Shown here piece by piece: positions 5,150 to 62,745 of a DNA stretch of 64,000 nucleotides. The DNA comes from Torpedo marmorata (lineage: Eukaryota): NCBI GenBank assembly GCA_977017645.1, contig OZ360239.1:10912001-10976000 (forward strand). The letters are read 5' to 3'. Numbering within the stretch: position 1 is the first letter of the stretch; every line of letters begins with the position of its first letter. Made by a program: the position numbers and the translations under genes. The notes under the pieces were generated by a model. The model was not told where the DNA came from, did not search any database, and worked only from the letters and a program-made list of their open reading frames with translations.

Positions 5150-5735
5150 AAAAACACAAAGCTGGAGAAACTCAGCTGGTCAAACAGTGAACTTTATATA
5201 GCAAAGATAAAGATACATAACCAACGTATCGGGCTTGAGCCCTTCATCAAGGTATGACAAAATGTAGGCAGGCGCCCGGACAAAATGGTGGGGGGAGGGG
5301 CAGGGGAGGAGCGCGGTCCCACAGGCAGGAGGTAATAGGTGGATAAGGGAGGGAGGGCACAGCAGCAAACAGGGGGAGGGGGATGGCTCTGTGAATGGAG
5401 AGGGAAGGGGGTGGAGAGCTGGAGGAAAGAAGACAGAGGGATGGGGAAGGGAGGGAGAACGGGGAGTGGTCTAGCAGAAACCGGAGAAGTCGATGTTAAT
5501 GCCATCCAGTCGGAGAGTGCCCAGATGGAAAATTAAATGTTGCTCCTCCAATTTACGGGTGGTCTAGGTTTGATAGTGCATGAGGCCATGGGCAGACATG
5601 TCAGCATGGGAGTGGGGCGCGGAATTGAAATGGTTGGCCACTGGGAGGTCCCTGTCACTGATGTGGACAGAGCGAAGGTGCTTAGCGAAGCGATCTTCCA
5701 ATCTGCGTCCAGTCTCTCCGATGTAGAGCAATGTG
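5150..5735 (-). mobile_element. Penelope-like element 3' fragment (GIY-YIG endonuclease remnant plus hammerhead-bearing tail)
   Basis: ORF 5564-5803 LYIGETGRRLEDRFAKH..PVANHFN; tail motif TTGATGAAGGGCTCAAGCCCGATACGTTGG at 5221-5250 (minus). Confidence 0.85.
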
Positions 5736-6249
5736 GGTGGTCTGAGAGTCCCTGTGCATGGTTCACTACAGGTACAACAAGTCATTACAAAAGCTAACAA
5801 CATCGTTTACTGCAAGGGGACTAGGATACAGAAGCGGGGAGGTTATGCTTCAGTTACATGGGGCTTTAGTGAGTCCACATCTGGAGTCTCTTCATTTCAG
5901 GAAGGATGTCAGTGTATTGAGAGCAGCCAAGGAAGGTTCACCAGATGAGAGGGAGTGCCTTAAGTTTGTACAGACCGTACTTGGAGGCACAGGAAAGACT
6001 CCTGGTACTGGAACCTGCAGCTATGCAGGTGAATAAAGTCACAGTAAGGTAAATAGTTGCAGTCTTTATCCCGGGCTAGGGCTGTCGAAAGCTTAGAGGG
6101 AATTTAGGGTGAGGGGGGAATGATTTACAAAGGACTTGAGGGGCAGGTTTTTCACACAGAGGGTGGTTGGATATGGGAACAAGCTGCCAGCGGAAGTGGG
6201 AGAGGCAGGTACCACGGTGAACTTTAAAAGAGGTTTGGACAGGTCCATG

Positions 6250-8038
6250 ATGGAATGAAGGTGGGGCCGCTAAAGGATAAAGGAGGCAACATGTGCCTGG
6301 AGGCAGAGGAGGTTGGGGAGGTCCTAAATGAATACTTTGCTTCAGTATTCACAAGAGAAAAGGACCTTGATCAGGGTGAGGTCGAAATTGAACAGGCCTG
6401 TGTGCTGGACAATGTGGAGATTAAGGAAGTGGAAGTGTTGGATCTTCTTAGAAACATCAAGATTGATAAGTCCTTGGGGCTGGACGCAATATACCCCAGG
6501 CTGCTGTGGGAAGTGAGGGAAGAGATAGCTGGGGCAGTAGCTATGATATTTGAATCCTCTTTGGCCGCAGGGGAGATACCGGAGGATTGGAGAATGGCAA
6601 ATGTAGTCCCCTTGTTTACAAAAGGTAATAGGGAGAATCCTGGGAATTATAGACTGGTGAGTCTTACGTCAGTGGTGTGTAAACTAATGGAGAGGATTCT
6701 TCAGGATAGGATTTATGAGCATTTGGAAAAGTACAGTCTACTCAAGGATAGTCAGCATGGCTTTGTGAAGGGAAGGTCATGCCTCACGAGCCTAATTGAG
6801 TTTTCTGAGGAGGTAACAAAAGAAATTGATGAGGGTAGGGCGGTAGATGTGGTTTACATGGATTTTAGCAAGGCATTTGACAAGGTCCCCCACGAGAGAG
6901 TCATCCAGAAAGTCATGAGGTACGGGATCAGTGGAACCTTGGCTGTGTGGATAAAAAATTGGCTTGTAGGAAGAAAGCAGAGAGTAGTAGTGGAAGGAAA
7001 GTATTCTGCCTGGAGGTCGGTGACTAGTGGAGTGCCGCAACTATCTGTTCTGGGACCCCTGCTCTTTGTGATTTTTATAAATGACCTGGATGAAGAGGCG
7101 GAAGGATGGGTCAGTAAGTTTGCGGATGACACGAAGGTTGGAGGAGTTGTGGATGGAACTGAAGGTTGTCGAAGGTTACAAGAGGATATAGACAGGATGC
7201 AGAGTTGGGCAGAAAAGTGGCAGATATAGTTTAATCCAGATAAGTGTGAGGTGATGCATTTTGGAAAGACAAACCAGAAGGTTGAGTACAGGGTTAATGG
7301 TCGGTTACTTAGGAGTGTGGATGAACAGAGAGACCTTGGGGTTCAAATCCATACATCCCTCAAGGTCGCTGCACAGGTTGATAGGATAGTTAAGAAGGCC
7401 TATGGGATACTGGGCTTCATTAATAGGGGGATTGAGTTCAAGAGTAGAGAGGTCATGTTGCAACTCTACAAATCTCTGGTGAGACCACACTTAGAGTATT
7501 GTGTTCAGTTCTGGTCACCTCATTATAGGAAGGATGTGGAAGCTATGGAGAGGGTGCAGAGGAGAGTTTCCAGGATGTTGCCTGGATTGGAAAATAAGTC
7601 TTATGAGGCAAGGTTAGCAGAGCTGGGACTTTTCTCTATGGAGCGTAGAAGGATGAGAGGAGACTTGATAGAGGTCGACAAGATTATGAGAGGCATAGAT
7701 AGGGTGGACAGTCAGCACCTGTTTCCCACGGCAGGATCAGCAAACACCGGAGAACATATGTACAAAGTTAAGGGAGGGAAGTTTAGGGGAGACATCAGGG
7801 GTAAGCTTTTTACACAGAGAGTTGTGGGTGTCTGGAATGTCTTGCCAGGGATGGTGGTGGAGGCTGGAACATTAGGGGCATTTAAGAGACTCTTAGACAG
7901 ACACATGGATGGAAGAAAAATAGAGGGTTATGGGGTAGGGAGGGTTTAGTACTTTTTTTTTTAGGAAGGAATATATGGGTCAGCACAACATCGAGGGCCG
8001 AAGGGCCTGTACTGTGCTGTATTGTTCTATGTTCTATA
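6250..8038 (+). mobile_element. CR1 LINE, 5'-truncated ORF2 and 3' UTR
   Basis: [26 protein letters not shown] and VRPHLEYCVQFWSP motifs; stop at 7227-7229; TTCTATG tail. Older CR1 debris lies at about 5735-6250. Confidence 0.95.
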
Positions 8039-10700: not shown

Positions 10701-12261
10701 CTAGTGCGGGGAGGTTCAAGAGCCTGACAGCTGTTGAAAAAAAACACCGAGTGTCCATGGATTCGCCTCCAGCGCTCCCGCAGCCTCTGCAGCCGCACAG
10801 ACTCCTGTTCGATCCATCGGCAACCCGAGCTACAGATACAAACCTCCGACACGATCAGGAAGCCTTCAGCGCCCGCGAGGCCCTTCGGGAGCCCTTATTG
10901 CCCTCCCTCTTGAATCCCAGCTCCGATACCTGGTTCCCAGGGGCCAGTGTCCAGCAGCCCGCAGTCCGTGTGGGTCCCCCGACCGCAAGTCGCCCGCAGC
11001 CCGTGTGGATTCTTACTTTTGTATTTGCTTCCACCACTACCCCTGCCAGCCCATTCCAGGCACCTGCTGCCCTCTGCACATCTCCCTTAAACTTCCTCCC
11101 TCTCAAAAGCATGTCCTCTAACAGGTGATATTTTTACCCTGGGGAAAAGACTGACTGTGCACCCTAACAGCACTTCTCATGATTTTATAAACCTCCCTCA
11201 GGTCTCCCCTCAGCAGCCAATGCCCCAGAGATAACAACCCAAGTTTGTCTGACCTCTCCCCATAGTTCATACCCTCTTATCCAGGCAACATCCTGGGACA
11301 CCACTTCCAAATACCCCACATCCTTTCTATAATGAGATGACAATGGAATTGCTCTCAGTATTCCACAATACTTTAACGCAGAGTTAGAAAGATTAAATTT
11401 GGGGGTGGGGGAGGGGTGAGGGGGGTGTGACAGGTTATCGAGGGTAGACAGGGAATGCAGAGCTGATGTTATAACCCAATCAGCCTCGATGCTGGAACTG
11501 GCTAGAGGGTCTGAATGGCCTGATCCCTGCCCCTAATGCCTACGTTCCTCCGCTGTGTCAGCCTATCGAGTCAAACAAGAAAGTCTGCAGACGTTGGGGT
11601 CAAGTGCAATACACAAATGTGCTGGAGAAACTCAGCAGGTCACACAGCATCCATAGGGAGTAAAGCATCACCAACATTTCGGGCCTGGGCCTTTCGTCAG
11701 GTATAATAAAAAAAAACAAATGAGAAAAAAAAGCTTTTTTTCTTATACCTGACGAAGGGCTCAGTCCCAAAACGTTGGTTCCGTTTACTTCCCATAGATG
11801 CTGCGTGACCTGCTGAGTTTCTCCAGCACGTTTGTGTGTTGCAGCCTGTTGAATCTGTCCTATATTTATTCATACCTTGAAGAAGGGCTCAGGCCCGAAA
11901 CGTCAGTAATATATCTTTACCTCCTGTAGACAGCCGCTCCCATCGGCTGCTCTGCACCCGCTGCAATCGCGTTACAGCCACCGTACTTGCAACTGCGCAT
12001 GCGCGAGCTCGGTGAGGGCGGGTTAGTTTAAATCGAGTACTTGCAGAGAGCAGACGCCCGCCTGCTGGGCTCTCTCTCTCTCTCCCTCTATGGCTATGTT
12101 CAGTAAACTGTTTGGTTAACATCACCTGCCGACTCGTCTCGTTACTCAGCACGTACAAGAATAAACATGGTGTCAGAAGCGGGATCGCCAGCGTCCCAAG
12201 CCTGAAGCCTTCCAATCGGTCGCAGTGAGTAACCAGAACCACGTTTGTAACAGTCGCCAAA

Positions 12262-13104
12262 ATGGCGGACGGATTTAGACGGCCCGACCCAATCGTGTTT
12301 GAAGGAAATGTGGCAGAGAACTGGCGCGTCTTTGAGCAGGAATATGACACATTTATTGCGGCAGCGCACAGCAACAAGTCTGCCCGCACGAGAGCATACA
12401 TTTTGTTGAATTTGGCGGGCCCGGAAGCCATTGAAAAGGAAACGGCGTTCGTATACTCAGACGAAGTGCGCGGCGAAGGGGGCCTCGTTACCAGCCCGGC
12501 TGAGTCAAGAGAGGACCCCGAATTTTTAAAACGCAAATTTAGAGAAATGTGCAATCCACAGCGAAACGTAATGATGGAACAGCACAAGTTTAACTGCAGA
12601 AACCAAAAGCCTGCCGAGTCAATTAACTCATACGTCAGCAATTTGAGAATCAGGGCAAAGACCTATAATTTCGGTACGCTCCGCGAAGAATTAATTAAAG
12701 ACAGAATGGTCTGTGGCATTCGTGATGACGGTATGTGGAAGGTGCTCCTGCGCGACAACGAATTAACGCCAGCAAAGGCCATCTATACCTGTCTGGCGTA
12801 CAAAGCCACCGAGGAAGACAGCAGAAAGTTGGCCTCTCCACAGCAGCAGGCCATGAGCATCGACGCGATCCAAGCGGGACCGGCAAACAGACAGTGGCTG
12901 GAGGCCAGAAGAAAGAGCCAGTCAGGCTACCCCACACCCCCGTCCATGGCAGGATGCGGCAACTGCGGAGGCGACCACGTGGCGAGAAAAGAGATGTGCC
13001 CGGCATTCGGCCAGCAGTGCAGGACCTGCGGGAAGTGGAACCACTACAGCGATGCTGCAGATCCAGGCAGCAAACCAACACATGGACCAGACCCAGAAGG
13101 ATGA
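12262..13104 (+). pseudogene. Gypsy gag (frameshifted near its 3' end)
   Basis: CGNCGGDH..C and CRTCGKWNH motifs; ATG just downstream of the PBS. Confidence 0.85.
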
Positions 13105-15962
13105 TCAACCAGCTAGAGCCGGAACAAGAGGAAGACAACCCCGGTGAGGAGTACTATGTGGACAGGCTGACCCCGTGGACAGCAGACAACCCAGCAGAAA
13201 ACCGGATCAGAGGAAACAACGAGGCCTTCGTATCCATGAAAATCAATGGCAAGGTGGCGGAGGTGAAGGTAGACACAGGGACGAAGTGCAACGTCATGTC
13301 ACTGAAGATGTTCAACCGGCTAAAAAAAGTGGAACAAGTTAAACCATGTGGCAGATCAACGAGCCTGGTGGCGTACGGAGGCAGTAGAATCCAGACCAGC
13401 GGCACAGTGCGGCTCCAGTGCCATGTACAAGGACGGCTACACATACAAGCATTCTTCATGGTCCGTGAGGACGTTATGCCGCAGCTAGGCCTGAGCACGT
13501 GCATGGACATGGGACTCATCTCATTCAGCAGGGAGGTACACCAGATAAGCCCCTCCGAAGACGACTTGTCCCAGAAATTTTTTTCCGAATATAGCGAGCT
13601 TTTCACAGACGAACTGGGGAGGCTGCCGGTGACATACTCCATGCGGCTCGATCTGGAGGTGCGACCCATGGTGCGTCCAGCACACCACATTCCGGTGGCA
13701 ATGAAGGACAAGGTCAAGGCCGAGCTGGACAGAATGCAGGACTTGGGCGTAATCATTCCAGTCTCGGAACCGACCGAATGGGTGTCCTCCATGGTGGCCG
13801 CCAAGAAGAAAGACGGACAAGAAATCCCAATCTGCATAAACCCGCAAGACCTCAACACCGCCCTGAAGAGACCACATCACCCCATGCGCACCGTAGAAGA
13901 AGTGGCTGTGAACAAATGGTCGGTGCGATGGTATTTTCGGTCCTAGACGCGAAAAACTCGTTCTGGCAAGTCTCACTCAACTACAAATCGTCACTACTGA
14001 CCACGTTCAGCACTGGGTTCGGTCGATACATGTTCCTGCGGATGCCATTCAGGATCAATTCGACCAGTGAAGTATTCCAAAGGTCCATGGAGCAAATCTT
14101 CACCGGCTACCCCTTCGCCATCATAGTCGATGACATACTGGTGGGCGGAAAAACTCAAGACGAACACGACGAAAACTTAAAGAAGGTGCTCGACCGAGCA
14201 CGGAAAGTGAACCTGAGGGTCAACCCCCGGAAGTGCAGGTTCCGTAGGCCATGTGTTCACGAGCAAAGGCCTGAAGGCGGACCCTTCCAAAACAAAGGCC
14301 ATCAGCGAAATGCCGGTGCCAATGGACGTGGCAGCGCTGCAAAGATTCCTGGGCATGGTAAACTACCTGGGCAAGTTTATCCCCAAAACGAGCGAGCTGA
14401 CAGCTCCACTGAGGCAGCTGACGAACAACAGCAGAATGCGTTTGATGCTTTAAAAAGACACATGTCGTGCCCTCCAGTCCTGTCCTACTACGACGTACGA
14501 AGACCGCTGATGTTGACCTGCGATGCCTCGCAGTATAGCCTAGGTGCAGCATGCCTGCAAGATGGGAAACCAGTGGCATACGCCTCAAGGTCACTCACTG
14601 ACACGGGAACCAGGTACGCACCAATTTGAAAAATAAGTGTCACCTTTGGTGACAATACTGAACAAACCAATACATGTGGCGCCGGCGAGACTACAGCGAA
14701 TGACGCTCAGACTCCAGAAGTACAACATCACTCTGGTGCACAAGTGCGGTAAGGAAATGCACTTAGCCGATGCGCTCTCACGCGCCCCCATAAAATGCAC
14801 GGTACAGCAGGTCGAAGAAGAAGACAGTTACGATGTGATGACAGTTGCCCATGTATCCTCGGCCCGGCTGGATGAACTAAGAAAACACACAGTGGAAGAC
14901 GGCACTCTAAGTACCCTGGGCACCTTCATCAAGGCCGGCTGGCCGAACAAACAGCGCAGCCTGCCACAAGCCGTGCAACCCTACTTTCCCTTCTGTGACG
15001 AGCTACTCATTGACGAAGGGGTCGTAATGAAGGGCCAAAGAGCGGTAATCCCAAGCTCACTGCAGGACGCATATGTTGAAATCCTACACAGAGGACACCC
15101 AGGCGCGGAGGCGACCAAACAAAGGGCGAGGGACGTCGTTTTCTGGCCAGGCATGACAGAAGACATAGATCAAGGGGTGCAGGCTTGCTCGGTGTGCAAC
15201 AGCACTAAGCCACACCAACAGAAAGAGCCACTACAGCTCCACCCCGTACCAGACCTACCCTGTGGTCGCGGACATTTTCAAATGGCGAAGAGATCAATAC
15301 TTGGTACTAGTTGACTTGTACTCGGGATGGTTCGAGATAGACCTGCTGCGCGACGCAACCTCCTCCGCGGTCATTACAAAGTTGAAACGTCACTTCGCAG
15401 TGCATGGGATGCCTCACACTCTGCTATCAGACAATGGCAGACAGTTCACCAGTGAGAGAAATTTGCAACGGCATGGGATTTCACCCACATCACCAGTAGC
15501 CCAGAGTACCCACATTCAAACGGGCTGGCTGAGAGTGCTGTAAGAAGCGCAAAGCAGCTCATGGAGAAGTCTCACAGAGAAAAGACAGTCGTGTTCCTTA
15601 ACCTGCTAAACCTGAGGAACATCCCTCACGACACCACACTTGGCTCACCGGCTCAACGGTTAATGTCAAGGAAGACCAGAACGACTCTGCCGGTAGCAAG
15701 GAGGCTTCTGGAACCTCAACTAAGAGTCCCGCAAGAAGTCAAGGCCCAGCTGCTGAACAGGAGGCTTGTGCAAAAGAAATGGTATGATAGAACAAGTCGA
15801 CCGCTCGAGCCATTGGCAGAAGGGCAGGTCATAAGAATGCAGACTCCACAGGGTTACCACCGCTCGGGGATAGTCGAAAGGAGCTGCCAGGAACCCAGAT
15901 CATACCTAGTTCGTTCAGAGGGGAGGGTGTACAGAAGGACAGACCGCACATCCTCCCAGTAA
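13100..15962 (+). pseudogene. Gypsy pol (PR-RT-RH-IN) broken over several frames
   Basis: ORF pieces 12735-13946, 13778-14629, 14637-15314, 15262-15543 and 15561-15962 carry the domains in PR-RT-RH-IN order. Confidence 0.9.
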
Positions 15963-16717
15963 GGGAGCCACCCCCATCTCAGGCCAACCCCAGAGAGACT
16001 GTATACCAGGATTTGGAACGCGAACCTGAGATCGGCGGGACTCCCCCAGAAACCAACAGGGAGACAATGGACAATAAACACTCTCAGGACGAGGCACCCC
16101 AAGCCTCCACGTCCACAGAGGGCTACTACAGAACACGCTTTGGACGCATCTGTAAACCCAACCCGAAATATCAGGACTGAACTGGGTTGGCTGTTTGATC
16201 AATGTCTGCAAATGTTTAAAATTGGTTTGAACTGTAATATGTAAGGGGCCGCTCAAAAAAGGGGATGTAGACAGCCGCTCCCATCGGCTGCTCTACACCC
16301 GCTGCAATCGCGTTGCAGCCACCGTACTCGCAACAGCGCATTACGCATGCGCGAGCTCGGTGAGGGCGGGTTAGTTTAAATTGAGTACTTGCAGAGAGCA
16401 GACGCCCACCTGCTGGGCTCTCTCTCTCTCTCCCTCTGTGGCTATGTTCAGTAAACTGTTTGGTTAACATCACCTGCCGACTCGTCTCGTTACTCAGCAC
16501 GTACAAGAACAAACACCTCCTATGGACGCTGCGAGACCGGCTGAGTTCCTCCAGCATTTCTGTGTGTTTTTACTACAATCACAGTGTCTGCAGACTTTCA
16601 TGTTTCACTCTGTGGAGAAGGATATCCAATTATTCTTAGTACCCCTCCCCATTACAGTCTAGACATTTCCCTGCTCACAGAATGTTCCGGATGTTCCAGC
16701 TGCATGTTCGACAATAC

Positions 16718-36291: not shown

Positions 36292-36910
36292 GTGAGTCCG
36301 CCTGGTCGCCATGGCTACCACCCCCCAAGGCGAGCAAACCACGAGCTGTCGGAGGGACTCAGTGGGTCAGGCTGCATCGTGGGTAGAAATGGTCTGTCAA
36401 CGTTTTGGGTCGGGACCCTTGATCGAGAATAAGGCGGGAAGGAGTGATGTCAAGTATATCGGGGAGGGGGATAGTGGAGTAGAAGATGGGTAGGGGCCTA
36501 GAGATGATGGGATTATGGACAGAAGGTGGGAGAGGTGGAGAGACAGGGAGGGATCACTGGGAGGGTGGGGGTGGGGGGGGGGGGAAGGTTAGAGAGAAAA
36601 GTAAGAACAGGAGTAGTTACAAAAAGATGGAAACAGTGTAACCAGAGAGAGGTGGGGGGGCGTTGGTTTACAGTGTGCATGCTGTTGGGTGGAAGGCTGT
36701 CCAGGAGGAGTATGATGAGTTGATCCTAAAATTTACTTTTGGCTTCACCCTCAGCGGAGGAGGCCGAGGACAGACATGTCTGTGTGGGAATGGGCAGGGG
36801 AATTGAACCGTGAGTTCCAGCTCAGACCCACAGAACGCAGGTGGTCAGAGAAGCGGTCAAGTCTCCTCTCTTCCTGAACCCAGATTCCTGGAACGTGTTT
36901 TTTTCAACAG

Positions 36911-37017: not shown

Positions 37018-37800
37018 GTGGGGGGACTTGTCATGACTTCCCATCACCATACCTGTCCTTTGTGATCACCTGTGTTCCTATTATGGTGGGATTTGATCTT
37101 GTGTCTCCAGATCTATAGATCAGGTCCTTGGTTGCAGGTTCAATAATTCCACCACTGCACTATCATTTCCCCCAGGTCCTGAGCTGTGATCATAAATGTT
37201 TCCCTGTATGTATCACATAGAACATTACAGCACAGTACAAGTCCTGCGATGTTGTGCCGTCCTATGTAAACCTACTCCACAACAATCTAACCCCTACCTC
37301 ACACCCATAAGCCTCTATTTTTCTTAAATCCACGTGCCTGTCTAAAAGTATTTTAAATGTCCCTGAAGTACCAGCCTCCACCACCACCCCCAACAATGCA
37401 TTCCAGGCACCCACCACTATCTGTTTAAAATAAAAAACTTACCTCTGACATCTCCCTTAAACTTTCCTCCACTCACCTTAAACAAATGTCATCTGTTTTT
37501 GGCTTCTGTCACCCCAGGAAAAAGGCGGTGGCTGTCCACCCTATCTACACCTCTTGTAATTTTGTACACCTTTACTAAGTCGTCTTTCATCCTCTGTCGC
37601 TCCAAAGAGAAAAGCCTTATCTTGCTCAACCTTTCTTCGTAAGACATGCTTTCCATTCCAGGCAACATCCTGGTAAATCTCCTCCGCACCCTCTCACATC
37701 CTTCCTGTAACGAGGCGACCAGAACTGAAAGCAATACTCCATGTGTGGTCTAACTAGTTTTACAGAGCTGCAACATTACCTCGCGGTTCTTGAACTCAAT

Positions 37801-39330
37801 ACATAAGAACATAAGAAATTAGGAATAGGAGTAGGCCAACCGGCCCATCGAGCCTGCTCCGCCATTCAATAAGATCATGGCTGATCTGATCAATGACCTA
37901 ACTCCACCTACCTGCCCTTTCCCCATATCCCCTAATTCCTTTTTTATGTAAAAATCTATCCAACTGAACCTTAAATATGTTCAATGAAGCAGCCTCAACC
38001 GCTTCCCTGGGTAGAGAATTCCACAAATTCACCACTCTCTGGGAAAAACTGTTTTTCCTCATCTCTGTCCTAAATCTACTTCCCCGAATCTTGAGGCTGT
38101 GTCCCCTAGTTTTGGTCTCACCCGCCAGTGAAAAAAACCTTCCTACCTCTATCCTATCCATCCCCTTCATAATTCTATATGTTTCTATAAGATCTCCTCT
38201 CATTCTTCTGAACTCGAGCGAGTATAATCCCAGACGATTTAATCTTTCATCATAAGTCAACCCCTTCATCTCAGGGATCAACCTAGTAAACCTCCTCTGG
38301 ACTGCCTCCAAGGCCAGTATATCCATCCTCAAATATGGAGACCAGAACTGCACACAGTACTCCAGGTGCGGTCTCACCAGTATCTTGTACAGTTGCAACA
38401 TTACCTCCTTGCTCCTGAATTCAATTCCTCCAGCGATGAAGGCCAACATTCCATTTGCCTTCTTAATAACCTGCTGCACCTGCAACCCAACTTTTTGCGA
38501 TTCGTGCACAAGCACTCCCAAGTCCTTCTGCACAACAGCATGCTGCAGTTTTTCCAACATTTAAATAATACTCTGCTCTTTTATTTTTCTTGCCAAAGTG
38601 GATAACCTCGCACTTACTAACATTGTACTCCATCTGCCAGACCTTTGCCCACTCACCTAACTTAACTATATCCCTCTGCAGCCTCTCCACATCCTCAGTA
38701 CAATTTGCTCTTTCACTCAATTTAGTATCATCCGCAAACTTGGCTACACCACATTTTGTCCCCTCCTCCAAATCATCAATGTAAATGATGAACAGTTGTG
38801 GGCCCAGCACCGACCCCTGCGGCACCCCACTTACCACTGTCTGCCAATCAGAAAAACACCCATTTATCCCGACTCTCTGCCTCCTTTCAGACAACCAATC
38901 CTCAATCCATGCCAATATACTTCCCTGGACTCCATTCACCTGTAACTTACTGATAAGTCTCTGCGGCACATTATCAAATGCTTTCTGGAAATCCAAATAT
39001 ACAACATCAACCTGTTCCCCTCTATCTACCGTACCCATTATGTCCTCAAAGAACTCTTAACAAGTTTGTCAAACAAGATCTGCCCTTCCTAAACCCATGC
39101 TGCATCTGCCTGATTGAACCCTTTCGTTTTAAATGTCTCACTATTTCATCCTTAATGACAGCTTCAAGCATTTTCCCAACTACAGACGTTAAGCTAATTG
39201 GCTGATAGTTCCCAGTCTTCTGCCTACATCCCTTCTTAAAAAGTGGCGTGACATTTGCTGTTTTCCAATCTGCTGGGACCTGCCCAGAATCCAGAGAATT
39301 TTTGGTATATGACCACCAATGCATCGACTA
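37801..39330 (-). mobile_element. CR1 LINE 3' half nested in an older CR1 (about 37220-37800 and 39330-39530)
   Basis: ORFs 39046-39324, 38463-39038 and 37898-38560; TTCTTATG tail; the host CR1 resumes on both sides. Confidence 0.9.
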
Positions 39331-39635
39331 ATGAGGCCAGCATACTGTACACCTTCTTAACCACCCTATTAATGTGAGTTGCAAGCTTGAGGGATCTATG
39401 GACCTTTGTTCCTCCACACTGTTAAGAATCTGGACATTAACCACGTATTCTGCCTTCATGTTCGACCTTCCAAAGTGCATCACTTCACACTATCAGACTG
39501 AGCATCTGCCATTTCTCTGCCCAACCCCGCTGCACTGTGTGACCTGGGACTGTGGTCTGGAAGAATCTGCTGTTGCACTGAGCATCCGTTGCTGCTAACC
39601 TGTCTCCTCCTCTCGTCCCCACACCCACTGCACAG

Positions 39636-39772
39636 GATGACGCCAGGTACAAGTGCCCCCAGTGTGACCGCCAGTTCATTCAGCACTGTGACCTGCGGAG
39701 GCATGCTCACATTCACACCGGGACGCAGCCCCACAAGTGTGACCTGTGTGGAAAGGCCTTCCTCAGGGCAAG
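39636..39772 (+). CDS. Zinc-finger gene coding exon 5, finger 2 and first half of finger 3 (YKCPQCDRQFIQHCDLRRHAHIHTGTQPHKCDLCGKAFLRA)
   Basis: gcacag|GAT and AAG|gtaagg; phase 0 to 2; TGEKP-like linker. Confidence 0.9.
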
Positions 39773-39882
39773 GTAAGGGGACAGTTCACCATCGACTGGG
39801 AACGATTCCACCGAGTCCTTCCCCAAAGTTTGTCCGAGTCACCCATTTGCTGCTTAAGTTGTGTTCTACTTTACATTCTCAG

Positions 39883-39965
39883 TGATCTGGTGGTTCACAA
39901 GCGGTTTCACACCAAGGATCGTCCATTTCAATGCAGCCAGTGTCAGAAATCCTTCTTTCAGTCCG
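39883..39965 (+). CDS. Zinc-finger gene coding exon 6 (SDLVVHKRFHTKDRPFQCSQCQKSFFQS)
   Basis: ttctcag|T and CCG|gtgagt; phase 2 to 1; completes finger 3 and starts finger 4. Confidence 0.9.
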
Positions 39966-40381
39966 GTGAGTATCACCAGGGTCCTTCCTTGCATAAACCC
40001 TCCACTAGATCCCAGCCCTTAACTCACTCCCAGGGAGCTGTTATTCTATATATATGGGTGGTATGGTAGTGTTGTGGTTAGCACCACCCGTGTTACGATG
40101 CCAGCAACACGGGTTAGTTCCATCTGTCAGGTGTTTGTACTTTCTCCCCGTGTCTGAGTGAGTTTTCTCCCACCCTTCAAAACATATGGGGTTGTAGGTC
40201 AATTGGGTGCAATTGGATGGTACGGGCTCATGGGCCAGAAGGGCCTGTTACCGTGTTGTATGTTTAAAGTTAAATTTAAAATTTAAGTTTAGATGCCATT
40301 GATTCCTTTGGAGGTGGTTGGGTTATGTGTGTGGAACCAGAATTTGTAGATCATTTTACTGAGCAGTGATTTACTCCACAG

Positions 40382-40550
40382 GTGACCTCCGGCGACATGT
40401 GAGAAACATCCACATGACCAACGCCCGGATGTTGAGCTGTGGCCACTGTAAGAAGAAGTACACCACGGAGGCAACACTACTCCATCACACCCAGACCGTG
40501 CACCAGGATATCTTGCTGCAGACCTTGAAGGAACAGGGGCAAATCAGCAG
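40382..40550 (+). CDS. Zinc-finger gene coding exon 7 (GDLRRHVRNIH..LSCGHCKKKYTTEATLLHHTQTVH..)
   Basis: ctccacag|GT and CAG|gtatgc; phase 1 to 2; completes finger 4 and encodes finger 5. Confidence 0.9.
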
Positions 40551-40929
40551 GTATGCTCTATAAATGGAGGCAAACTGGGAACCAACCATTGCTTTAGTGA
40601 CGAGCTCATTCAGATCGAGGTGTATGGTGTCTCTGCAAGGTTATCTGTTTCAACCTTACACAATATTGGTGAGTCCACACTTGAGATTATTGTGTGCAGT
40701 TCTTGTTACACAGCTGTAGGAAAGAAATCGTTGAGCTGGAAATGGTGCAGAAAAGGTTCACAAGAATTTTACCAGGACTAGCGGGCTTCAGGTATAAGGA
40801 AAGGCTGTATAAATTGGTGCTTTTATCCCTGGAGTGTACGAGGCTGATGGATGGACCTTAGAGGTTTATAAAATCATGAGGTGTATAAATAATTTAATAG
40901 TCCTGGACTTTTTCCCATTCCAGGGGAAT

Positions 40930-41165: not shown

Positions 41166-42036
41166 AAATAGAGGGCACAAACTTAAGGTGAGACAGGAAA
41201 TATTTGAAAAGGACCTGAGGGGCTTTTATTTCACAGAGAGGGTGGTGGGTGTGTGGAATGAGCTGCCAGAAGTGGTAGAGGTGGGGATGTTTAAGAGACA
41301 GGTACGTGGATGGGAAAGGTTTTGAGGGATATGGGCTGAATGTAGGCAAATGGGTAGATCGCTTGATCAACATGGAGCTGTACACAAAGGTGCTGGAGAA
41401 ACACAGTAGGTCACACAACATCCATGGAAAGCAGAATGTTATCGACGTTTCGGGCCTGAACCCTTTTTCAGGTGTGACAAATCCATTGCCAGCATGGATG
41501 AGTTGTTTCTGTGCTGTCAAACTCTAGACATCTAAATTTAACTTTTAAAAATTTTATTTACAACATGGTAGAAGCTGATACTGGCCATTTAAACTCGTAC
41601 CGCCTAATTACATCCACATCAACCTAAAACCCCGTACGTTTTGAAGGGTGGGAGGAAACCAACGCAGACACAGGGAGAACATACAAACTCCTTACAGACA
41701 GCGCCGGATTCGAACCTGGGTTGCTGGCGCTGTAATAGCGTCGCGCTAACCATGCCGCCCGTGGATTGGATACAGAGATGCTCCCCTGCTCTATGGAAGT
41801 AGTTTGACCAAGTCGTTTGCATCCTCCTGGGAGAGATGGAATGTCTGCACCTCTGACAAAGCAGTGGGAGCACCAGAGTCCATTTTATGCTGAAGGAGGA
41901 ATTGAACCCAGTCTAATTCCCAGAGTCATGGCTACTGGTTTAAAATATAGAGCATGTAATAATTGTTTTGGACCAGTGTTTATTGTACGTCTTGCTGCCC
42001 TTGTTTTGACGTGTGCATCTGCCACTTTAATTGCAG

Positions 42037-46472: not shown

Positions 46473-47439
46473 GCCCTAGAATATTCTTCAGACCTGAAAA
46501 GGTAGGATGTGACGCAGGAGTGTTCGCCAACACACATTTCTGATGTACACAAAATTTTAAAGGGTAGGACAAGTATAAAATTTAAGCAGTGCAAATTCCT
46601 GTTGTTTGGGCATTCATGACAAGGAGAGAGAGTACTGATTTGGGGTGGCCCAAAGCTCAGTTTTGGGCCGCGGAAGTTTGATTTATTTCAATAACTGACC
46701 TACAAACAAAAAAACAAATGTGCTGGTGAAACTCAGCGGGCCGAGCGGCATCCATGGGGAAAGAATGGTCGACACTTCGGGTCAGGACTTGAAGGGTTCC
46801 AACCAGAAAAGTTGATAATTTTTCTCCCGCTGAGTTCCTCCAGCAGTTGGATTTCACTCCAGATTCCTGCATCTGCAGGCCCTTGTGTGTCTCCATTGAT
46901 TTCTACAAGTTTTACGTTTTGAAAGGTGCAAGTGAAACATTTTCTCCAGTCACAACCTGCCCTGCTGACACCTTGTTCTTATTTCATATTCCCAGCACCT
47001 GTAGTGCTGTTTAAGTTGCACAAGCAGGTATGATTTACCAGTGGTCTGCTCAGCTCTGCAAGGCAATAGAACAGCAAAAGAGAGCAGCAAGCAGATCTGC
47101 AAAGCAATTAGAGGTCAAGGATGTGAAGTGAAGTGGGAGAAACCTGGGACTTCTTAACCAATATCAATCCTGGGCTAAAGCAGCTCAGTGCCAGACAGAG
47201 GCAGACTCATGGCTAGGTAAGAATTTAAAACGAGATGAAACTCATCAAGATTAATCTAAAAACCAGGATGAGAACATGACATGATGAAAGCTTACAAACA
47301 GGCAGAATCTCAGTGAATTAGAACATTACAGCACAGGCCCTTTGGCCCACAATGCTGTGCCGACCTGTGTAAACCTACACAATCTAAACCTTTCTTAACC
47401 ATAACCTTTTTTTTTCATTCTGTGCCTTTGTCTTTTAAA

Positions 47440-50857: not shown

Positions 50858-51237
50858 TTAAATAGCAGCTACCTCATTGACTATAACCTGCACCACAAAG
50901 TCCTTCTGGATTTTCGTCTCCTGCAGTCGCATCTTGTCGGTCAGCAGTCTTCCCGAGAAGAACCAGCGCTGCTGCGATGGCTCGATGCCCTCCTCGGCGT
51001 GCAGCTGCCGCTTCAGCTGGCCGATCGTGTCTGCCATGCTGGCGTTCAGTTTGACGTCCTTGCCCGTGGACAGGCGCACCTTCAGCTGGAACTCGCGCTT
51101 GGTGTGAGCCGGTGGGTCGGGCACATCAGTGGCCTCCTCGTCGCACTTCTCCGTGATGAGGTTGAGGGGCGGCGCCAGGCAGTAAACGGGAAGCCGGTAT
51201 CTGTTGCCAAGCTCGTCATAACATTCGGTCAAAGAAC
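50858..51237 (-). CDS. UBTD1: Ubiquitin domain-containing protein 1, last coding exon
   Basis: [71 protein letters not shown] matches UBTD1 better than UBTD2; acceptor cccacttccag|GT, phase 1; TAA stop. Upstream exons were not found in the window. Confidence 0.9.
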
Positions 51238-52774
51238 CTGGAAGTGGGAGACAGGAAACATTTTCAGTGAAGACGCTTCACGTTGGCTACTGAATGAACC
51301 CCAGTGCTCTTGTGCTGCTCTTGCTTGGTAGACCTTTCCTTTCATAGCAATTCCACACCCTGTAAATTGTGCTCTTTACATGGCTGTATGAAGTTAGAGA
51401 TAACCTGAGACTGCTCGCAGAAGAACCTCTCACCGTACTTGTTATAATGTGATAAATAAACTTGAACATTCAATTCCAACTTTCCACCCAGGACACACCC
51501 AGCTATAAGCAAATTCTTACTCCATCCCATCAATTCATCCTGAATACCTCTCACCACACTGATGCATTATCAGTAGTGCTACTCACCAGGGATCAGAAAC
51601 TCATTTCTGAATGAGCAAAATGGGTAATGAGATATTGGTGTTCCTGTCAAAGGATTTTACTGCATTCCATTTCAGACTCTTGCTGTCCCCTCCGCCTTTC
51701 CTGGTTACTCTCTGCCAACATTGATACACTCCCATGAATACAGTCACTTATCAACAACAATATTGGTGTTCCTGTGCTCAATTTTTTCTTCATTTGGGTT
51801 TTCTTCATTTGGCCCCTGAACTCCTCCATCCTGATCAAAAAGGCACAACAGCGCCTTTATTTCCTGCAGAGCATCAAGAAAGCTCACCTCTGTCCCAGGA
51901 TACTGATGGATTTTTACCACTGTACTATTGAGAGCATACTCACCTACGGCATCTCAGTGTGGTATGGCAACTGTCCCGTATCGGACTGTAAAGCACTCCA
52001 GCAGGTGGTGAAAACTGCCCAGCAGATTATTGGCACCGAATTGATCAGTGATCCATCAGGAGCTTTGGCTGATTATATAGGTGGCACGGTTAAGCAACGC
52101 TATTACAGTGCCAGGAACCCTGGTTCGAATCCATCACTGTCTGCAAGGAATTTGTACATCCTCCTCGTGTCCGCGTGGGCTTCTTCCGGTTTCCTCCCAA
52201 GTTCCAAAGACATATGGGATTGGCAGGGAAAATGGTCACATGGGTGTATTTGGGTGGCTAGGGCTCGTGGGCTGGAAGGGCCTGTTATGCTTCTCGGCCA
52301 AAAGCTGATCAAGACCAAATAAAACTCCCCACATTTACCTGGTTTGTGAAGTTTTACAGTGACAATTTTTGCTTACTGAATCTTTGGGAAATTTTTTTTA
52401 AAAAGCTGGTACAATTTAAATGACTCATGGATGCAAAAATGGAAGGTTATGGGCTGTGAGGTTGGGAAGGGTTAGATTAGGTTTACATAGCATCGTGGAT
52501 TGAAGTGCTTCTATGTAACCAGCATTTTAAAAATAATAAAATCACTGAATAGGTGAGGTGGCCAACACAATTGATTTTACTTTATAAAGGATTAGGGATG
52601 ACATCCTGATCTTTGCTTACCAGGACAAATTCCATCTCTTTCACATCCCTATTGTGCATGAGCTGTCATCCATGTCTGTTGTCTCCAGGCTCGACTATTC
52701 TTGTGACTCCCTTGCCAGCTATCTATTTATCAAAAACTCTGCCACCGGAATCCCAATGAACACCAAGGTTTGCT

Positions 52775-56125: not shown

Positions 56126-57222
56126 CAGTACAGAAGGTGGTGAGTGTATGGAACGGGCTGCCAGAGGAGGTGGTTGAGGCAGGTACTATTGTAGTGTTTA
56201 AGAAAATATTGGACAGATACATAGATAGGATGGGTTTAGAGGGATATGGGTCAAACGCTGGCAGATGGGACATATGAGTGGGACATTTTGTTTGGAGTGG
56301 GCAAGTTAGACTCTAAGCATGAAATTATGAGTTTTGGGAAGTTAAACCAGGGCAGTAAATGACGTTTGGGAATGTTTCAGAACAGAGATATTCAGGGATG
56401 CAAGTCTTACAGTATACTCACCCTGCAAACGTTTCCAAAGAGTTATGCTCCAGTGGAAATTGAAATGTACAGGTGATGTGCGAAATTGGGATAGTCAATT
56501 CGAGGCAATCTTTAACCTTCATGGTCACAACATTCCAAAAATCCAAATCGCACATACTCTGTTGCATTTTCTACCAAAACATTTTATTCCAGTCTCTGAG
56601 ATAAACCCATGTTCAGTGACTTTCACCATAATCTAGGGCGGCAATGCTATTACAGCGCCAGCAACCCTGGTTCAAATCCGGCGCTGTCTGTAAGGAGTTT
56701 GTACGTTCTCCCAGTGTCTGCGTGGGTTTCCTCCCACCCTTCAAAAACATACGGGGGTTGTAGGTTAATTGGTGTATGTGGGGGGCACCGGTTCGTGGGC
56801 CGGAAGGGCCTGTTAGCTGGCTGTATTTCTAAATTAATAACCCTACATCACTCATTCTTACCTCGCAAGTCCCAGTTTGAGAATTTCCATGTTTCAAGGC
56901 AATCCAAGATGGGTACTGTTAAAAGGAAGGGTCTCCTACTTTCCCCTACACCTGCATGCAGGCATCTACTCCTGTATACTGAATTAGTTGTGACTTCTTG
57001 AAGTTAAGCTTCACTCATGCTCATTCAAGGATCTCTCCAATACTGGGTGTGCGTGCACACATTTTATGTAACAATAATCGGGATTTGAGGTCAGTGCAGA
57101 AAAACAGTGCTGAAGTAAAGATCAACCTAGATTTTACTTAATGGGGCAGGAGGCACAGGTTCCATGGAATGCAAGTGGCTTTAATTCTCTGAAGGAAAAT
57201 AGAACCAAGAGCTTAAGATACC

Positions 57223-57359
57223 CTGATGAAGGGCTCAAGCCCGAAACATTGGTTATGTATCTTTATCTTTGCTACATAAAGCACACTATTTGACCCAAGT
57301 TTCTCCAGCATTGTGTTTTTACTTCAACCACGGTGTCTGCAGACTTTCATGTTTTACTT
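57223..57359 (+). mobile_element. 137-bp Penelope tail insertion starting at a minimal hammerhead motif
   Basis: CTGATGAAGGGCTCAAGCCCGAAACATTGGTTAT; 17-bp TSD CAAGAGCTT(A/G)AGATACC at 57206-57222 and 57360-57376. Confidence 0.8.
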
Positions 57360-58763
57360 CAAGAGCTTGAGATACCAGATTAGATCTTGCACATTTACTA
57401 GGGTGCTAAATCCGAAAGACTACAAGATGACAAATAAAACAGTGATCTTCTCCAGCACTGTGGACACCACTGAGGCGAGGCCACAATTAGACCAGGGAGA
57501 GAGGCTTCAGTTTGAGTCCTTGGTTATTTGTCACATGTAGGAGGAAAATATACAGTCACTGGGAACAATCATTAGGAGGGTCAGAGTTTCTCCACTTGCA
57601 AGCACTGGAGTTAGGAGAAAAAACAGTTGGCATGCCACCAACACAAGTTGGTAATTACAGTATGTCAAAGTACATGAATACATAATAAACTCAGTAACAG
57701 AAAATTTATGCAGATTAGACATTCCATACCAACAATTCAGAACCTTTCAAATCAGGTCCACCATTCAATAAGACGGTGGCCAATCTGGCTGTAATCTCAC
57801 CGCCATTTCCTTCCTGCCTATTCATGCCTTGCTTCAAAAATACTGTATTCAAAGATTTCTTCTACCTCAGAATCAGGTTTATTGTCATGAAAGTGTCATG
57901 AAATTTGTTTTGTAGCAGCAGTATTGCGCAGAACAAGGCGCAAAATTACTATAAATTATAATTCTGTAAATACAAACTTAAAAAAAAACTAGTGCAAAAA
58001 AGAAAAAAAGTGAGGTTGTGTCCAGAGGTTCATTGTCTGTTCAGAAATCTGATGGCGGAGGGGAAGAAGCTGTTTTTGTACCGTTGAGGGTATACCTGCT
58101 TTTGAAAAATTGTTTCATAGGCTCTATACCCTCAGTCCCCTATGCGAAAGTTAACACTTTATATACCTCAGGAGGAAGTTAATAAACAAGCCCAATACAA
58201 ATTTGTCACAATTCCACAAGCTAATAAGATCTCACACTAAGTGAGAGTTTAACCTACTGTCAACTTTTACATCGGCCATTTCCTCACCTGGGTTTGTGCA
58301 AGACCCTGCTACCACACACAGCAGGGGAGCAAGAGAAGTTTGTACCTGACTCAGAGCAATAATTGGTCCATACCACATCTTACGTTTTGGCAGATTTTGC
58401 AAAACTCCTGCAAGCTTCCTTGCTGCTAACTGGCTCAAGTCAATGAAAACACTCAAGGATTATGGAGTGCACACATTCAACAAGATGGAAACAGCCTTGC
58501 ACAGTAAGTGACCTTGGGGAAATGTTATAAAGATTGAATGTTCCAAAGATTTACTTCGATTAAAAAAAAAAAATCCAATTGTATACGAGCTCTCAACAAG
58601 TTCGAGCAATGAAGTAAATACATCAAAAATTGCTTTGGACAGTGGGAAATCAAGTTTGAAACACATTGCTAAATTTTATTGAACATTCTCTAAATGCACA
58701 AAGTGCAGATATTATAAAGGAAAGCAGTCAGATTGGAACTCTGCTAGTCTGCGCACTATTGTA

Positions 58764-59422: not shown

Positions 59423-59449
59423 TATTTTAAAGTTCGATCAAGGTAAATA

Positions 59450-60240
59450 AGAAAACCTGCAGATGCTGGTGTCCAGTTCAGTACACAGAAGTGCTGGAGA
59501 AACTCAGCAGGTCACGCAGCACCATTAGGAAGTAAAAGACAGTCGATACTTTGGGTCTGAGCCCTTCTTCAGGAGTGGGCAGGCAGATATCCAACTAAAA
59601 ATATGGAAGAGGGAAGGGCACAGGTTAACAGGTGGATACAGATGGGAGGATAGAAAAGAAAGAAGCTGAGAAGTGAGAGGGGAAGAGGGCAGAAGGCGAA
59701 GAAAGATAGCTCTCTGATAGGAGAAAAGGAAGGGGATGGAGGAATGGAGACAGAGGGATGAGGTAAAGAGAGACTAGGGGAAGGGGGTTAATGGAAAATG
59801 GAGAAGATGACATTGATGCCACCTGGTTGGAGACTGCCGAGACGGAATACAAGGTGTTCCTCCTCCAATTTATTTGTAGTCTCAACTTTGCCATACGAGG
59901 CCATGGACTGTCATGTCAGTGTAGTAATGGTGAGTAGAATTAAAATGGTTCGTCACTAGGAGGTCTTTGCTGTTGTAGCAGACAGAGCAAAGGTGCTCAA
60001 CAAAGCGATCTCCCAGTTGGAGTCCAGTCTCCTCAACGTAGAGGTGGCCACATCCGGACTGCCAGATGCTCTGCAGATTCACAGATAAAGTATTGCTTAA
60101 CTTGGAAGGACAGTTTGTGGCCCCGAATAGTAGTGAGGGAGGAGGTGCAAGTGTTGCAGTCACAGCTGCACGTTTTGACAGGAATTTGATGGCTGGAGCA
60201 CAAGAAACAAAACTGAAATAGCGTGAAAGAATTGAACCCA
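59450..60240 (-). mobile_element. Degenerate Penelope-like element 3' part
   Basis: LYVEETG..GDRFVEH..VTNHFN GIY-YIG remnant; degenerate hammerhead tail at 59541-59576. Confidence 0.8.
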
Positions 60241-60439
60241 ATTATATTTTCTCTTTGGCAGTTCCTCAGAGTCAGATGCCTTGTTTCCACACCAGTTCTT
60301 GGGTTTGGAGATGGTTGTTGAGCCCACTACAGGTCCGCCACAGGACATGCTTGATAGGATGAAGTGAGAGGATGGGATCTGGGATCTGGTGCATATTTTT
60401 TTTATGTTAAACCTTTCCATGCTGAGCTCCACTCTTTAC

Positions 60440-62745
60440 AAAATCCCTCTCCATCATTTGGGGCCCCAACAGTTCTTCCAAGTGAAGCAACACTTCACTT
60501 GTGAATCTGCAGGAGTCATCAACTGCATCCGGTGATCCCGTTGTGGCCTTCTCAACATTGGAGAAACTGGACGCAGACTGGGAGATGACTTCGCTGAGCA
60601 CCTTTGCTCTGTTCGCATCAATGACAGGGATCTCCCGGTGGCCAACCATTTTAATTCTGCGCCCCACTCCCACATGTCTGTCCATGGCCTCATGCACTGC
60701 CAAACCAGGGCCATCCGTAAATTGGAGGAGCAACACCTAATATTCCACCTGGGCACTCTCTTTTCTTTTTAAAATATTTTTATTGAGTTTAACATATAAA
60801 CTTGTATACAAAAGATTTTGGAGAACACATAAAAAGTCATCTCATATACATACAAATACAAAAGAAAAAAAACCAGATGGAACTACAGTACATTGACCAG
60901 TTCCTGAATCCACATGAGAGACAAGTTATAAACATACTATAAAAATCATGTTGAAACCCATATTACAAATTATTCAAACTAAAAAAAAAGGTATAAAAAG
61001 AAAAAAAAGGACCAAAAAAAACCCTAAAAACTGAATCTAATCTAACCCCTCCCTCTAATCAAGGATACCTTTGTAAGAAAAAGGAAAAATATGGATCAGA
61101 TAGCGACCTCCAGACATCAGACAGAGAATCCTTGGAACATTCAAAATTCTTCCAATCATGATAGTATTCTATGAATGGGCCCCACATCTTTAGAAATTGA
61201 AACTTTCTATCTTTGATATTGTATCTAATTTTCTCCAAGCTCAAATAGGACATTACATCCTGTAACCACTGTATATGGGGAGGTGAGGAATCATTTTTAA
61301 AATTGCTCGTCTGGCTATCAACGTGGAAAAAGCTAAGACTTTCTCCTGAGATGCAGACAAAAATATATCTGGTTCACATGAAAAACCAAACAGAGCAATT
61401 ATCGGACATGGTTCTATTTTAATCTTGAAAATCATTGATAAAGTTTGGAAAATATCTTTCCAAAATCTCTCTAAATTTGGGCATTCCCAAAACATATGAA
61501 TCAGTGAGGCTTCAAAAATTTTACACTTCTCACCTAGTGGATCAATATCTGCACAAAAATTAAATAATTTAAGTTTGGACATATGGATTCTATGTACCAC
61601 CTTAAATTGTAATAAACAATGTCTTGCACAGAATGAAGAGGTGTAAATCAAGCTAAGAGTATGATACCAATCTTCATCTGAAAATGTTATTTTCAAATCG
61701 TTCTTAATCCCAGCTATAGAGGCTGATCTTATATCCAATAAATCATTATAAATGCACGATGTTAATCCACGATGAAAAAAAAAACCGTAAATTAAAAAGT
61801 GAATCGAAGATATTAGTATTTGAGATTCGAGGAAAATCAGAAAGCTTGGACTGAACAAAATGTCTAATTTGTAAATATCTAAAAAAATGTCTATTAGAAA
61901 GATTAAATTGGGCTACTAGTTGTTCAAAAGATGCAAAGTTATCTCGAATAAAACGATCATTATAGCTATGAATACCCAATCTATACCATTCCTTAAATCC
62001 TACATGCAGCACAGACGGCTGAAAAAGGTGATTATCTATAATGAGACTAGCCAGAGAAAAACTATTGAGACCAAAACATTTTCTAAATTACGCCCATATT
62101 CTCAACCTATTTCTCAATAACAGATTATGAGTCAATTTGGAAAAGGAAAATGGTAAAAAAAAATCCCAAAATTGCCAGCATAGATGTTTTTTTTGAAAAC
62201 TTCAGTTCCATTTCCACCCAAGAAGGGCGATTCACTAACTTATCAAAATGTAATAATAAAAGCAAATTACGAATATTAATCGCCCAATAATAAAATCTAA
62301 AATCTGGAAGTGATAAACCTCCATTCCTTTTAATCTTTTGAAGATGGGCTTCTGGGCACTCTCCAACCAGATGGCATTAACATCAACTTCTCTGGTTTCT
62401 GCTAGACCACTCCCCGTTCTCCCTCTCTTCCCCATCCCTCTGTCTTCTTTCCTCCAGCTCTCCACCACCTTCCCTCTGCATTCACACAGCCACCCCCTCC
62501 CCATGTTTTCTCGTGCCCTCCCTCCCTTATCCACCTATGACCTGTGCTCCTCCCCCTGCCCCCCCCCACCATTTTATTCAGGCGCCTGCCAACATTTTGT
62601 TCATACCTTGATGGTCTCAAGCCCGAAACATTGGTTATGTATCTTTATCTTTGCTATATAAAGGACACTGTTTGACCTGCTGAGTTTCTCCAGCATTGTG
62701 TTTTTACTTCAATCACAGTGTCTGCAGCCTTTCATGTTTCACCCT
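60440..62745 (+). mobile_element. Penelope-like 3' part split by a minus-strand L1
   Basis: GIY-YIG remnant at about 60480-60760 continues at 62352 into the same tail as 5150-5520. Confidence 0.8.
60761..62351 (-). mobile_element. 5'-truncated L1-clade LINE of a second family
   Basis: FFRYLQIRH, LLQFKVVHR, HMFWECP and EKIRY..KMWGP motifs; poly(A) at the 60761 end; 12-bp TSD CTGGGCACTCTC (60749-60760, 62352-62363). Confidence 0.88.

What the first reader, a model, noticed from the sequence alone, without database searches (positions are those of the whole stretch)
5216..62639. Dispersed family of minimal hammerhead-ribozyme motifs in Penelope tails
Seen: a recurrent motif CATACC-(C/T)TGANGA-A-GGGC-TCAR-GCCC-GAAA-CGT(T/C)-GGTTATG at 5216-5256(-), 11668-11705(-), 11745-11780(+), 11871-11906(+), 41441-41476(-), 57218-57256(+), 59541-59576(-) and 62602-62639(+), plus decayed copies near 36400 and 46770. 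It contains the CUGANGA/GAAA/UH core, a 4-bp stem II, a stem I (ACC/GGT) and only a palindromic AACGTT in place of stem III. Established: Penelope-like elements carry such minimal type I hammerheads, which cleave best as dimers. Three copies are still attached to GIY-YIG remnants. Inference: most copies carry core mutations, but the density (about 1 per 7 kb) means host pre-mRNAs here contain potential self-cleaving sites.
Basis: partly seen in the sequence, partly recalled or inferred. Interest (0 to 1): 0.7.

Follow-up and report, generated by a model that had tools for sequence, protein, structure and literature searches.

The report
Decayed Penelope tails with minimal hammerheads
The repeated motif is real and is the known minimal hammerhead-ribozyme motif in the end repeats of a very abundant Penelope-like jumping gene, but every copy in this window is damaged and likely inert, so it is not a set of live self-cutting sites in host RNA.

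Summary
All eight listed copies and both decayed ones are there. They are 3' ends of a Neptune-type Penelope-like element: intact relatives in this genome are 3.9-kb units with one RT + GIY-YIG frame and a motif in each flanking repeat. The kind is published (PMC4209133), and this scan has noted it many times before, in this genome and others. The fold is kept between subfamilies (compensatory stem changes), but dispersed copies decay without detectable protection, and none of the window's copies passes an intact-motif test. The density is ordinary for this genome. Only one intronic copy was found in sense to a host gene, and it has lost G12. Two side results: the dominant family has U3·G8 instead of C3-G8 (70,250 versus 157 exact matches), and older families show C-G, U·G and U-A. 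Short copies start at the motif's 5' foot rather than at the predicted cut. Cleavage is untested. Verdict: ordinary member of a known kind; the pre-mRNA inference is not supported.

The parts
5216..5256 (-). Minimal hammerhead motif, family A1; U3·G8 core, A14 mutated (GATA)
5137..5734 (-). 5'-truncated Penelope-like copy: GIY-YIG remnant with an internal stop (about 5470-5734), 3' UTR, motif and tail
11570..11843 (.). Head-to-head fold-back of two short family-B tails; motif 11668-11705(-) has G10.1 and C15.2 changed, motif 11745-11780(+) has G12 and one stem II base changed; predicted to form one long hairpin
11871..11924 (+). Motif of the C-type families with all core bases and stem II intact (U3·G8) but G1.1 changed, which breaks the closing pair of stem I; copy begins at the motif's 5' foot
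16515..16619 (+). Rest of the tail of the 11871 copy, separated from it by an inserted LTR retrotransposon (11925-16515)
36336..36903 (-). Old family-E copy: GIY-YIG remnant, decayed motif at 36400-36426 (U4, position 8 and G12 changed) and tail; antisense to a zinc-finger gene exon at about 36910-37017
41378..41477 (-). Short copy; motif 41441-41476 has C3 opposite A8 (no 3:8 pair)
46705..46860 (.). Decayed tail on the minus strand with only the 3' half of the motif, plus a short inverted tail piece
57218..57361 (+). Solo short family-A1 insertion with a 17-bp target duplication (1 mismatch); C3-G8 core but G16.2 changed, which breaks the palindrome needed for the dimer; antisense in a UBTD-type gene intron
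59437..60241 (-). 5'-truncated family-D copy: GIY-YIG remnant, motif 59541-59576 with G12 and A15.1 lost; the one copy found in sense within a host intron
60444..60760 (+). GIY-YIG remnant belonging to the 62602 copy
62351..62742 (+). 3' end of that copy; motif 62602-62639 has a 4-nt deletion across G8/A9 and the base of stem II

Best explanation
The motifs are 3'-end pieces of a very abundant Penelope-like retrotransposon family, each carrying the element's minimal type I hammerhead motif, and the copies in this window are mutated and likely inert. Shown: full-length relatives are about 3.9 kb, with one RT + GIY-YIG frame and the motif in both flanking repeats; genomic copies end about 78 or 112 nt past the predicted cut and are 5'-truncated, often with an inverted partner or a target duplication. 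Inferred: reverse transcription starts at those internal sites and runs through an uncut motif, as reported in vitro for the Anolis element; selection keeps the fold only in active master elements, where it likely works as a slow, dimer- or protein-dependent ribozyme; after insertion the copies decay neutrally.
For: Four window copies follow GIY-YIG remnants. 6 of 16 long-frame loci fetched carry two or more same-strand motifs 3.85-3.92 kb apart around the frame. That frame hits RVT_1 (E 4.4e-6) and GIY-YIG (E 0.0048), both under Pfam's cut-offs; its best named homologues are cartilaginous-fish proteins at 64-73% identity. Among 12 family majorities the 9 fixed core positions vary in one column only, against 4 of 4 loop columns and 21 of 22 flank columns; stems change in compensating pairs. 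In 45 untargeted A1 copies, non-CpG core positions diverge 13/358 (3.6%), stems 34/724 (4.7%), loop 3/152 (2.0%), CpG sites 68/249 (27%); core against the non-recruiting rest p=0.06. CpG decay hits catalytic G12 about as often as its neighbour (10 versus 13 of 74). 0 of 8 window motif hits are intact against 15 of 58 in 700 kb elsewhere. No excess of 5' ends at the predicted cut: 4 of 31, 2.9 expected. PMC11167929 reports internal RT initiation at two sites, cleavage only with protein, and insertion unaffected by ribozyme mutants.
Against: No cleavage was measured. The between-family invariance is partly built in, because recruitment anchored on stem II and GAAACGT, and 12 of the 26 rows were recruited with patterns fixing the stem bases and positions 3 and 8; on that alignment the number of pairs with double changes (3) did not exceed shuffles (273 of 500 as high). 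The core of dispersed copies is slightly, though not significantly, better kept than the rest (p=0.06). The youngest families carry up to three C-to-U changes opposite G (positions 2.1, 3, 11.1), which may mean the ribozyme is being lost even in masters. The pile-up of 5' ends at the motif's foot is not explained by simple random truncation.
Confidence: 0.85

Rival explanations
1. [quoted passage not shown]
For: Family A spread with U3·G8 (70,250 exact matches against 157 C3-G8 and 732 U3-A8). 5' ends cluster at the motif's 5' foot: 13 of 81 copies at -35 to -27 (window chosen afterwards) and 12 of 38 short copies at -36 to -26 in a fresh set (3.6 expected, p=1.5e-4). PMC11167929 found ribozyme mutants harmless for insertion in vitro.
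Against: The catalytic G12 stays while its CpG neighbour changed in family A3 (TG 28, CA 0 of 39). Old families show C-G, U·G and U-A but almost no C·A at 3:8 (19, 42, 49, 1), as expected if the tertiary pair matters. 7 of the 12 clustered ends were flagged as inversion joints and two share one junction, so the cluster may reflect template switching or microhomology.
Confidence: 0.25
2. Dispersed copies act as live self-cleaving sites that shape host pre-mRNAs.
For: 15 of 58 motif hits in 700 kb are intact by sequence and 4 neighbouring pairs within 1 kb share a strand, so some loci elsewhere in the genome could form dimers.
Against: 0 of 8 intact in this window; all 15 intact hits elsewhere have U3·G8. 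The 11745/11871 pair is predicted to be blocked by a fold-back (region -167.8 kcal/mol). Three of four intronic copies are antisense. A minimal motif showed no monomer cleavage and low dimer cleavage in PMC4209133.
Confidence: 0.05
3. The short copies are a separate non-autonomous retrozyme or SINE family cut out by the ribozyme and copied from small circles.
For: Short solo copies can carry 11-17 bp flanking duplications and many begin near one place.
Against: They begin about 30 nt upstream of the predicted cut, not at it; they share sequence with full-length elements; 38 of 87 copies run 255 nt or more upstream and the rest end at scattered points. No tandem arrays of the motif were seen in the window.
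Confidence: 0.07

Closest known systems
Minimal hammerheads (min-HHR) in pLTRs of metazoan Penelope-like elements, Cervera and De la Pena 2014 (PMC4209133; first 20,000 of 32,700 characters and parts 1-2 of 3 of supplement file 2 read; supplement file 1 not available)
   Same: Type I, no helix III, palindromic 15.2-16.2, one base between 9 and 10.1, G10.1-C11.1, place in pLTRs, mostly solo truncated copies, inverted close pairs. U3-A8 is reported for S. mansoni and a U3·G8 row appears for Saccoglossus in Fig. S3.
   Different: No cartilaginous fish is among the rows I read. Here U3·G8 is the majority state of the dominant family, and C-G, U·G and U-A all occur in one genome.
Poseidon element of Anolis carolinensis, Frangieh et al. 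2024 (PMC11167929; first two of four parts read)
   Same: Two genomic 3' ends about 35 nt apart downstream of the motif (the tail), copies that run through the uncut motif, partial tandems.
   Different: There the frame starts inside the hammerhead and the core is C3-G8; here the ATG lies about 150 nt after the predicted cut, the core is U3·G8 and the protein has the Neptune-type cysteine linker.
Neptune-clade EN+ Penelope-like elements, Craig et al. 2021 (PMC8557442; passages read)
   Same: Single RT + C-terminal GIY-YIG frame, CX2-5CxxC linker before the nuclease, partial tandem pLTRs, adjacent inverted truncated copy, optional tail.
   Different: No RT tree was built, so Neptune against Nematis is not settled. 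The frame is long (1160-1190 aa).
Non-LTR retrozymes (bioRxiv 10.64898/2026.07.22.740005; first part and passages read)
   Same: Type I hammerheads related to PLE pLTRs; reported in one chondrichthyan genome.
   Different: Retrozymes are tandem arrays with a motif in each unit; these are dispersed truncated ends of an autonomous element.

Membership tests
EN+ Penelope-like element | Single frame with RT and C-terminal GIY-YIG | tested here: met
   746-aa and 1160-1190-aa frames; RVT_1 and GIY-YIG hits below curated cut-offs; homologues carry both families
EN+ Penelope-like element | Partial-tandem pLTRs, inverted 5' copies, optional tail | tested here: met
   6 of 16 loci with same-strand motifs 3.85-3.92 kb apart; inverted copies in several; two 3' ends
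Neptune clade | CX2-5CxxC linker between RT and nuclease | tested here: met
   Seen directly in the frames printed; motif as defined in PMC8557442
Neptune clade | Placement in an RT phylogeny | not tested
   No named reference sequences were on hand
Minimal type I hammerhead (family level) | U4 G5 A6, A9, G12 A13 A14, A15.1-U16.1, H17 | tested here: met
   Invariant in 12 family majorities except G12 in B2, which reflects query bias and CpG decay; partly built in by recruitment
Minimal type I hammerhead (family level) | Watson-Crick 3:8 pair (C3-G8 or U3-A8) | tested here: not met
   Not met for the dominant family A (U·G 70,250; C-G 157; U-A 732); met for families B2, D, G (C-G) and E (U-A)
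Minimal type I hammerhead (family level) | Stems I and II with covariation | tested here: met
   93.3% of cells paired against 87.3 +/- 1.2 shuffled and at most 52% slid (partly circular); two double changes in distal stem I between families A1 and C2
Minimal type I hammerhead (family level) | Palindrome in place of stem III allowing a dimer | tested here: met
   ACGU in 12 of 12 family majorities
Minimal type I hammerhead (window copies) | Intact core, stems and palindrome in the copy itself | tested here: not met
   0 of 8 motif hits
Hammerhead ribozyme | Site-specific self-cleavage | not testable with these tools
   No raw RNA reads were offered; copy ends show no excess at the predicted cut
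Rfam hammerhead families | Match to a curated model | tested here: not met
   No hammerhead family at E<=10
Non-LTR retrozyme | Tandem units each with a motif, no coding partner | tested here: not met
   Copies are dispersed and continuous with the PLE frame

The most novel reading that the evidence does not exclude
This lineage is a natural experiment on the hammerhead's 3:8 tertiary pair: master elements moved between C-G, U·G and U-A while avoiding C·A, the family that made about 100,000 copies did so with the wobble, and the motif's 5' foot, not its cut site, marks where many copies begin, so in these elements the fold serves mainly as a protein-gated switch or RNA 5'-end signal for retrotransposition.
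Probability: 0.2. Interest if true: 0.6.

Novelty: new member of a known kind. Interest (0 to 1): 0.28.

Why it matters
As given, it matters little: solo minimal hammerheads from Penelope-like elements are published as widespread in animal genomes, and these copies are broken. The useful by-product is a test set for an open question, whether Penelope-like elements need their ribozyme to cut: one genome offers a young, intact, high-copy element with a wobble 3:8 pair and older relatives with both Watson-Crick versions.

Tried and rejected
Rfam scan: no hammerhead family. Pfam, NCBIfam and PDB sequence searches with the 746-aa frame: nothing; the 1185-aa frame gave weak RT and GIY-YIG hits. Protein atlas: unavailable. 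Sequencing runs: no RNA holder listed; four contig-only runs laid gave no start, end or splice information, so expression, cleavage and a possible 5' UTR intron remain open. Test of a circular template by comparing 5' and 3' repeats of single insertions: mixed, not decisive. Idea that copies start at the cut site: rejected. Idea that family B fixed G12A: rejected as query bias plus CpG decay (5 CG, 4 CA, 1 TG in 10 untargeted copies). Single-strand folding does not single out the hammerhead fold: 2 of 7 sequences had z below -2, and in other folds. Searches used the wrong strand for the ubiquitin-domain exon and are void; one search corrects this. Primary papers on the activity of 3:8 variants were not held and three searches found no rate for U3·G8, so its weakness is recalled, not read. 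The host-gene context of the copies at 5216 and 11.6-11.9 kb was not determined.
Full report
Observation. The two decayed copies are supported by their tails, and the one at 36400 also by an upstream nuclease remnant. Rfam has no matching hammerhead model. The motif sits in a repeat of about 150 nt or more whose downstream tail alone recruits 11 hits in the window, 45 in 200 kb of flanks and 79 in 700 kb of stretches taken at round coordinates, so this window is typical of its 6.2-Gb genome. The host is probably a cartilaginous fish: the best named homologues of the element's protein are from Chiloscyllium (64-66%) and Mobula (73%).

What carries it. Four window copies follow GIY-YIG remnants. 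A search with the element's C-terminal region had 208,902 first-look candidates in the genome, and a 35-nt stretch of the family-A tail matches exactly 102,214 times. Of 16 loci fetched for long frames, 6 hold two or more same-strand motifs 3.85-3.92 kb apart around a frame of up to about 1190 aa, and several have an adjacent inverted copy. The frame hits RVT_1 and GIY-YIG weakly and has the CX2-5CxxC linker that PMC8557442 (passages) gives for Neptune and Nematis. The ATG lies about 150 nt after the predicted cut; genomic 3' ends fall at two places, about 78 and 112 nt after it, which matches the two internal RT start sites and the tail reported for the Anolis element (PMC11167929, first two parts read).

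Is the fold kept? Clustering 366 copies gave about a dozen families. In their majority sequences the nine fixed core positions vary in one column, which traces to query bias, while 4 of 4 loop columns and 21 of 22 flank columns vary. Stem I differs between groups with pairing kept, and two distal pairs change on both sides between families A1 and C2; stem II swaps C-G for U-A at its outer pair. On 26 hand-picked least-diverged copies, 93.3% of cells pair against 87.3% in shuffles and at most 52% when slid, but the count of doubly changed pairs does not beat shuffles, and 12 rows were recruited with patterns that fix these bases. Recruitment also anchored on stem II and GAAACGT, so this is supportive, not independent. 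The tail holds 20 invariant columns of 55 as well.

The 3:8 pair. In the GUC/GAC-stem families exact genome counts are C-G 19, C·A 1, U·G 42, U-A 49 (Fisher p=3.5e-5, but copies descend from few masters, so this amounts to few events). In family A the counts are U·G 70,250, C-G 157, U-A 732. Cervera and De la Pena report U3-A8 in Schistosoma and list one U3·G8 family in Saccoglossus (PMC4209133, text and Fig. S3), so the state has a precedent. That U3·G8 weakens cutting is my recall; the primary papers were not held. In the youngest family C11.1 has also become U while G12 is untouched (28 against 0 of 39), whereas older dead copies lose the two equally (13 against 10 of 74).

Are the dispersed copies live? 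In 45 untargeted A1 copies the non-CpG core diverges 3.6%, stems 4.7%, loop 2.0%, upstream flank 8.8% and CpG sites 27%; core against the non-recruiting rest gives p=0.06. Each window copy has a lesion: A14 (5216), G10.1 and C15.2 (11668), G12 (11745), G1.1 (11871), U4, 8 and G12 (36400), C3·A8 (41441), G16.2 (57218), G12 and A15.1 (59541), a 4-nt deletion (62602), half missing (46770). A strict test passes 0 of 8 window hits and 15 of 58 elsewhere, all U3·G8. The only close same-strand pair, 11745 and 11871, is predicted to be blocked because 11745 pairs with the inverted copy before it. A UBTD-type gene runs on the minus strand, with its last exon at 50858-51277 and the previous one about 10 kb past the window's end: 57218 and 62602 are antisense in that intron and 59541 is sense but broken. 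A zinc-finger gene has plus-strand exons at about 36.9, 39.6-40.0 and 40.4 kb, so 36400 is antisense. The context of the 5.2 and 11.7 kb copies was not determined.

Where copies begin. If cutting made the template's 5' end, copies should start at the cut. They do not: 4 of 31 short copies, 2.9 expected. Instead 13 of 81 copies started 27-35 nt upstream, at the 5' foot of stem I (window chosen after looking), and a fresh set recruited by the tail alone repeated this (12 of 38 at -36 to -26, 3.6 expected, p=1.5e-4; 7 flagged as inversion joints, two sharing one junction). Five window copies also begin there. A transcription start near -35, RT release at the structure, or microhomology with the target (the 17-bp duplication at 57218 includes the stem I bases) could each explain it; I could not separate them.

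Mechanism. Most likely the element's protein starts reverse transcription downstream of an uncut motif and leaves truncated, inverted or tandem copies; the motif is maintained only in masters, likely as a slow dimer- or protein-dependent ribozyme, and decays after insertion. The layout, decay and copy ends are shown; the RT start and ribozyme behaviour are inferred from PMC11167929 and PMC4209133.

Verdict. The scan's earlier notes report the same family, the U3 core and the clustered starts many times (47 notes fit in this genome); I had measured these before the look-ups, except the replication. The host pre-mRNA inference fails for this window. Interest 0.28.

Noticed in passing
window 11925-16515: Gypsy-type LTR retrotransposon (LTRs 11925-12167 and 16266-16515, 94% alike; 5-bp target duplication; frames broken) inserted into the tail of the 11871 copy.
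   Followed up: partly
window 50858-51277 (-): Last exon of a UBTD1/2-type ubiquitin-domain gene; the preceding exon lies about 10 kb past the window's end.
   Followed up: partly
window 36910-40560 (+): Several C2H2 zinc-finger exons of one gene, not named.
   Followed up: partly
tail of all families, about 35-60 nt after the predicted cut (e.g. window 11810-11830): A block conserved in all families that could form a 7-bp hairpin or read as branch point plus 3' splice site; older families also have a pyrimidine tract and AG just before the core. Penelope is known to have a 5' UTR intron; no RNA reads to test it.
   Followed up: no
L299 (G000:C50:85324001-85334000): Three tandem near-identical 3.9-kb units of the young family, 99.4% alike.
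   Followed up: partly
window 60760-62350: About 1.6 kb of other, LINE-like sequence splits a Penelope-like copy inside the end of its nuclease frame.
   Followed up: no
family B2, e.g. window 11745-11780: One pyrimidine shorter between stem I and UGA than families A and C: canonical C3 at the price of a weak stem I.
   Followed up: partly
L371, G000:C1:4813832-4813968: A short copy starting at -29 directly after the 3' end of an inverted partner's tail region, one of many joint geometries among fold-back pairs.
   Followed up: no
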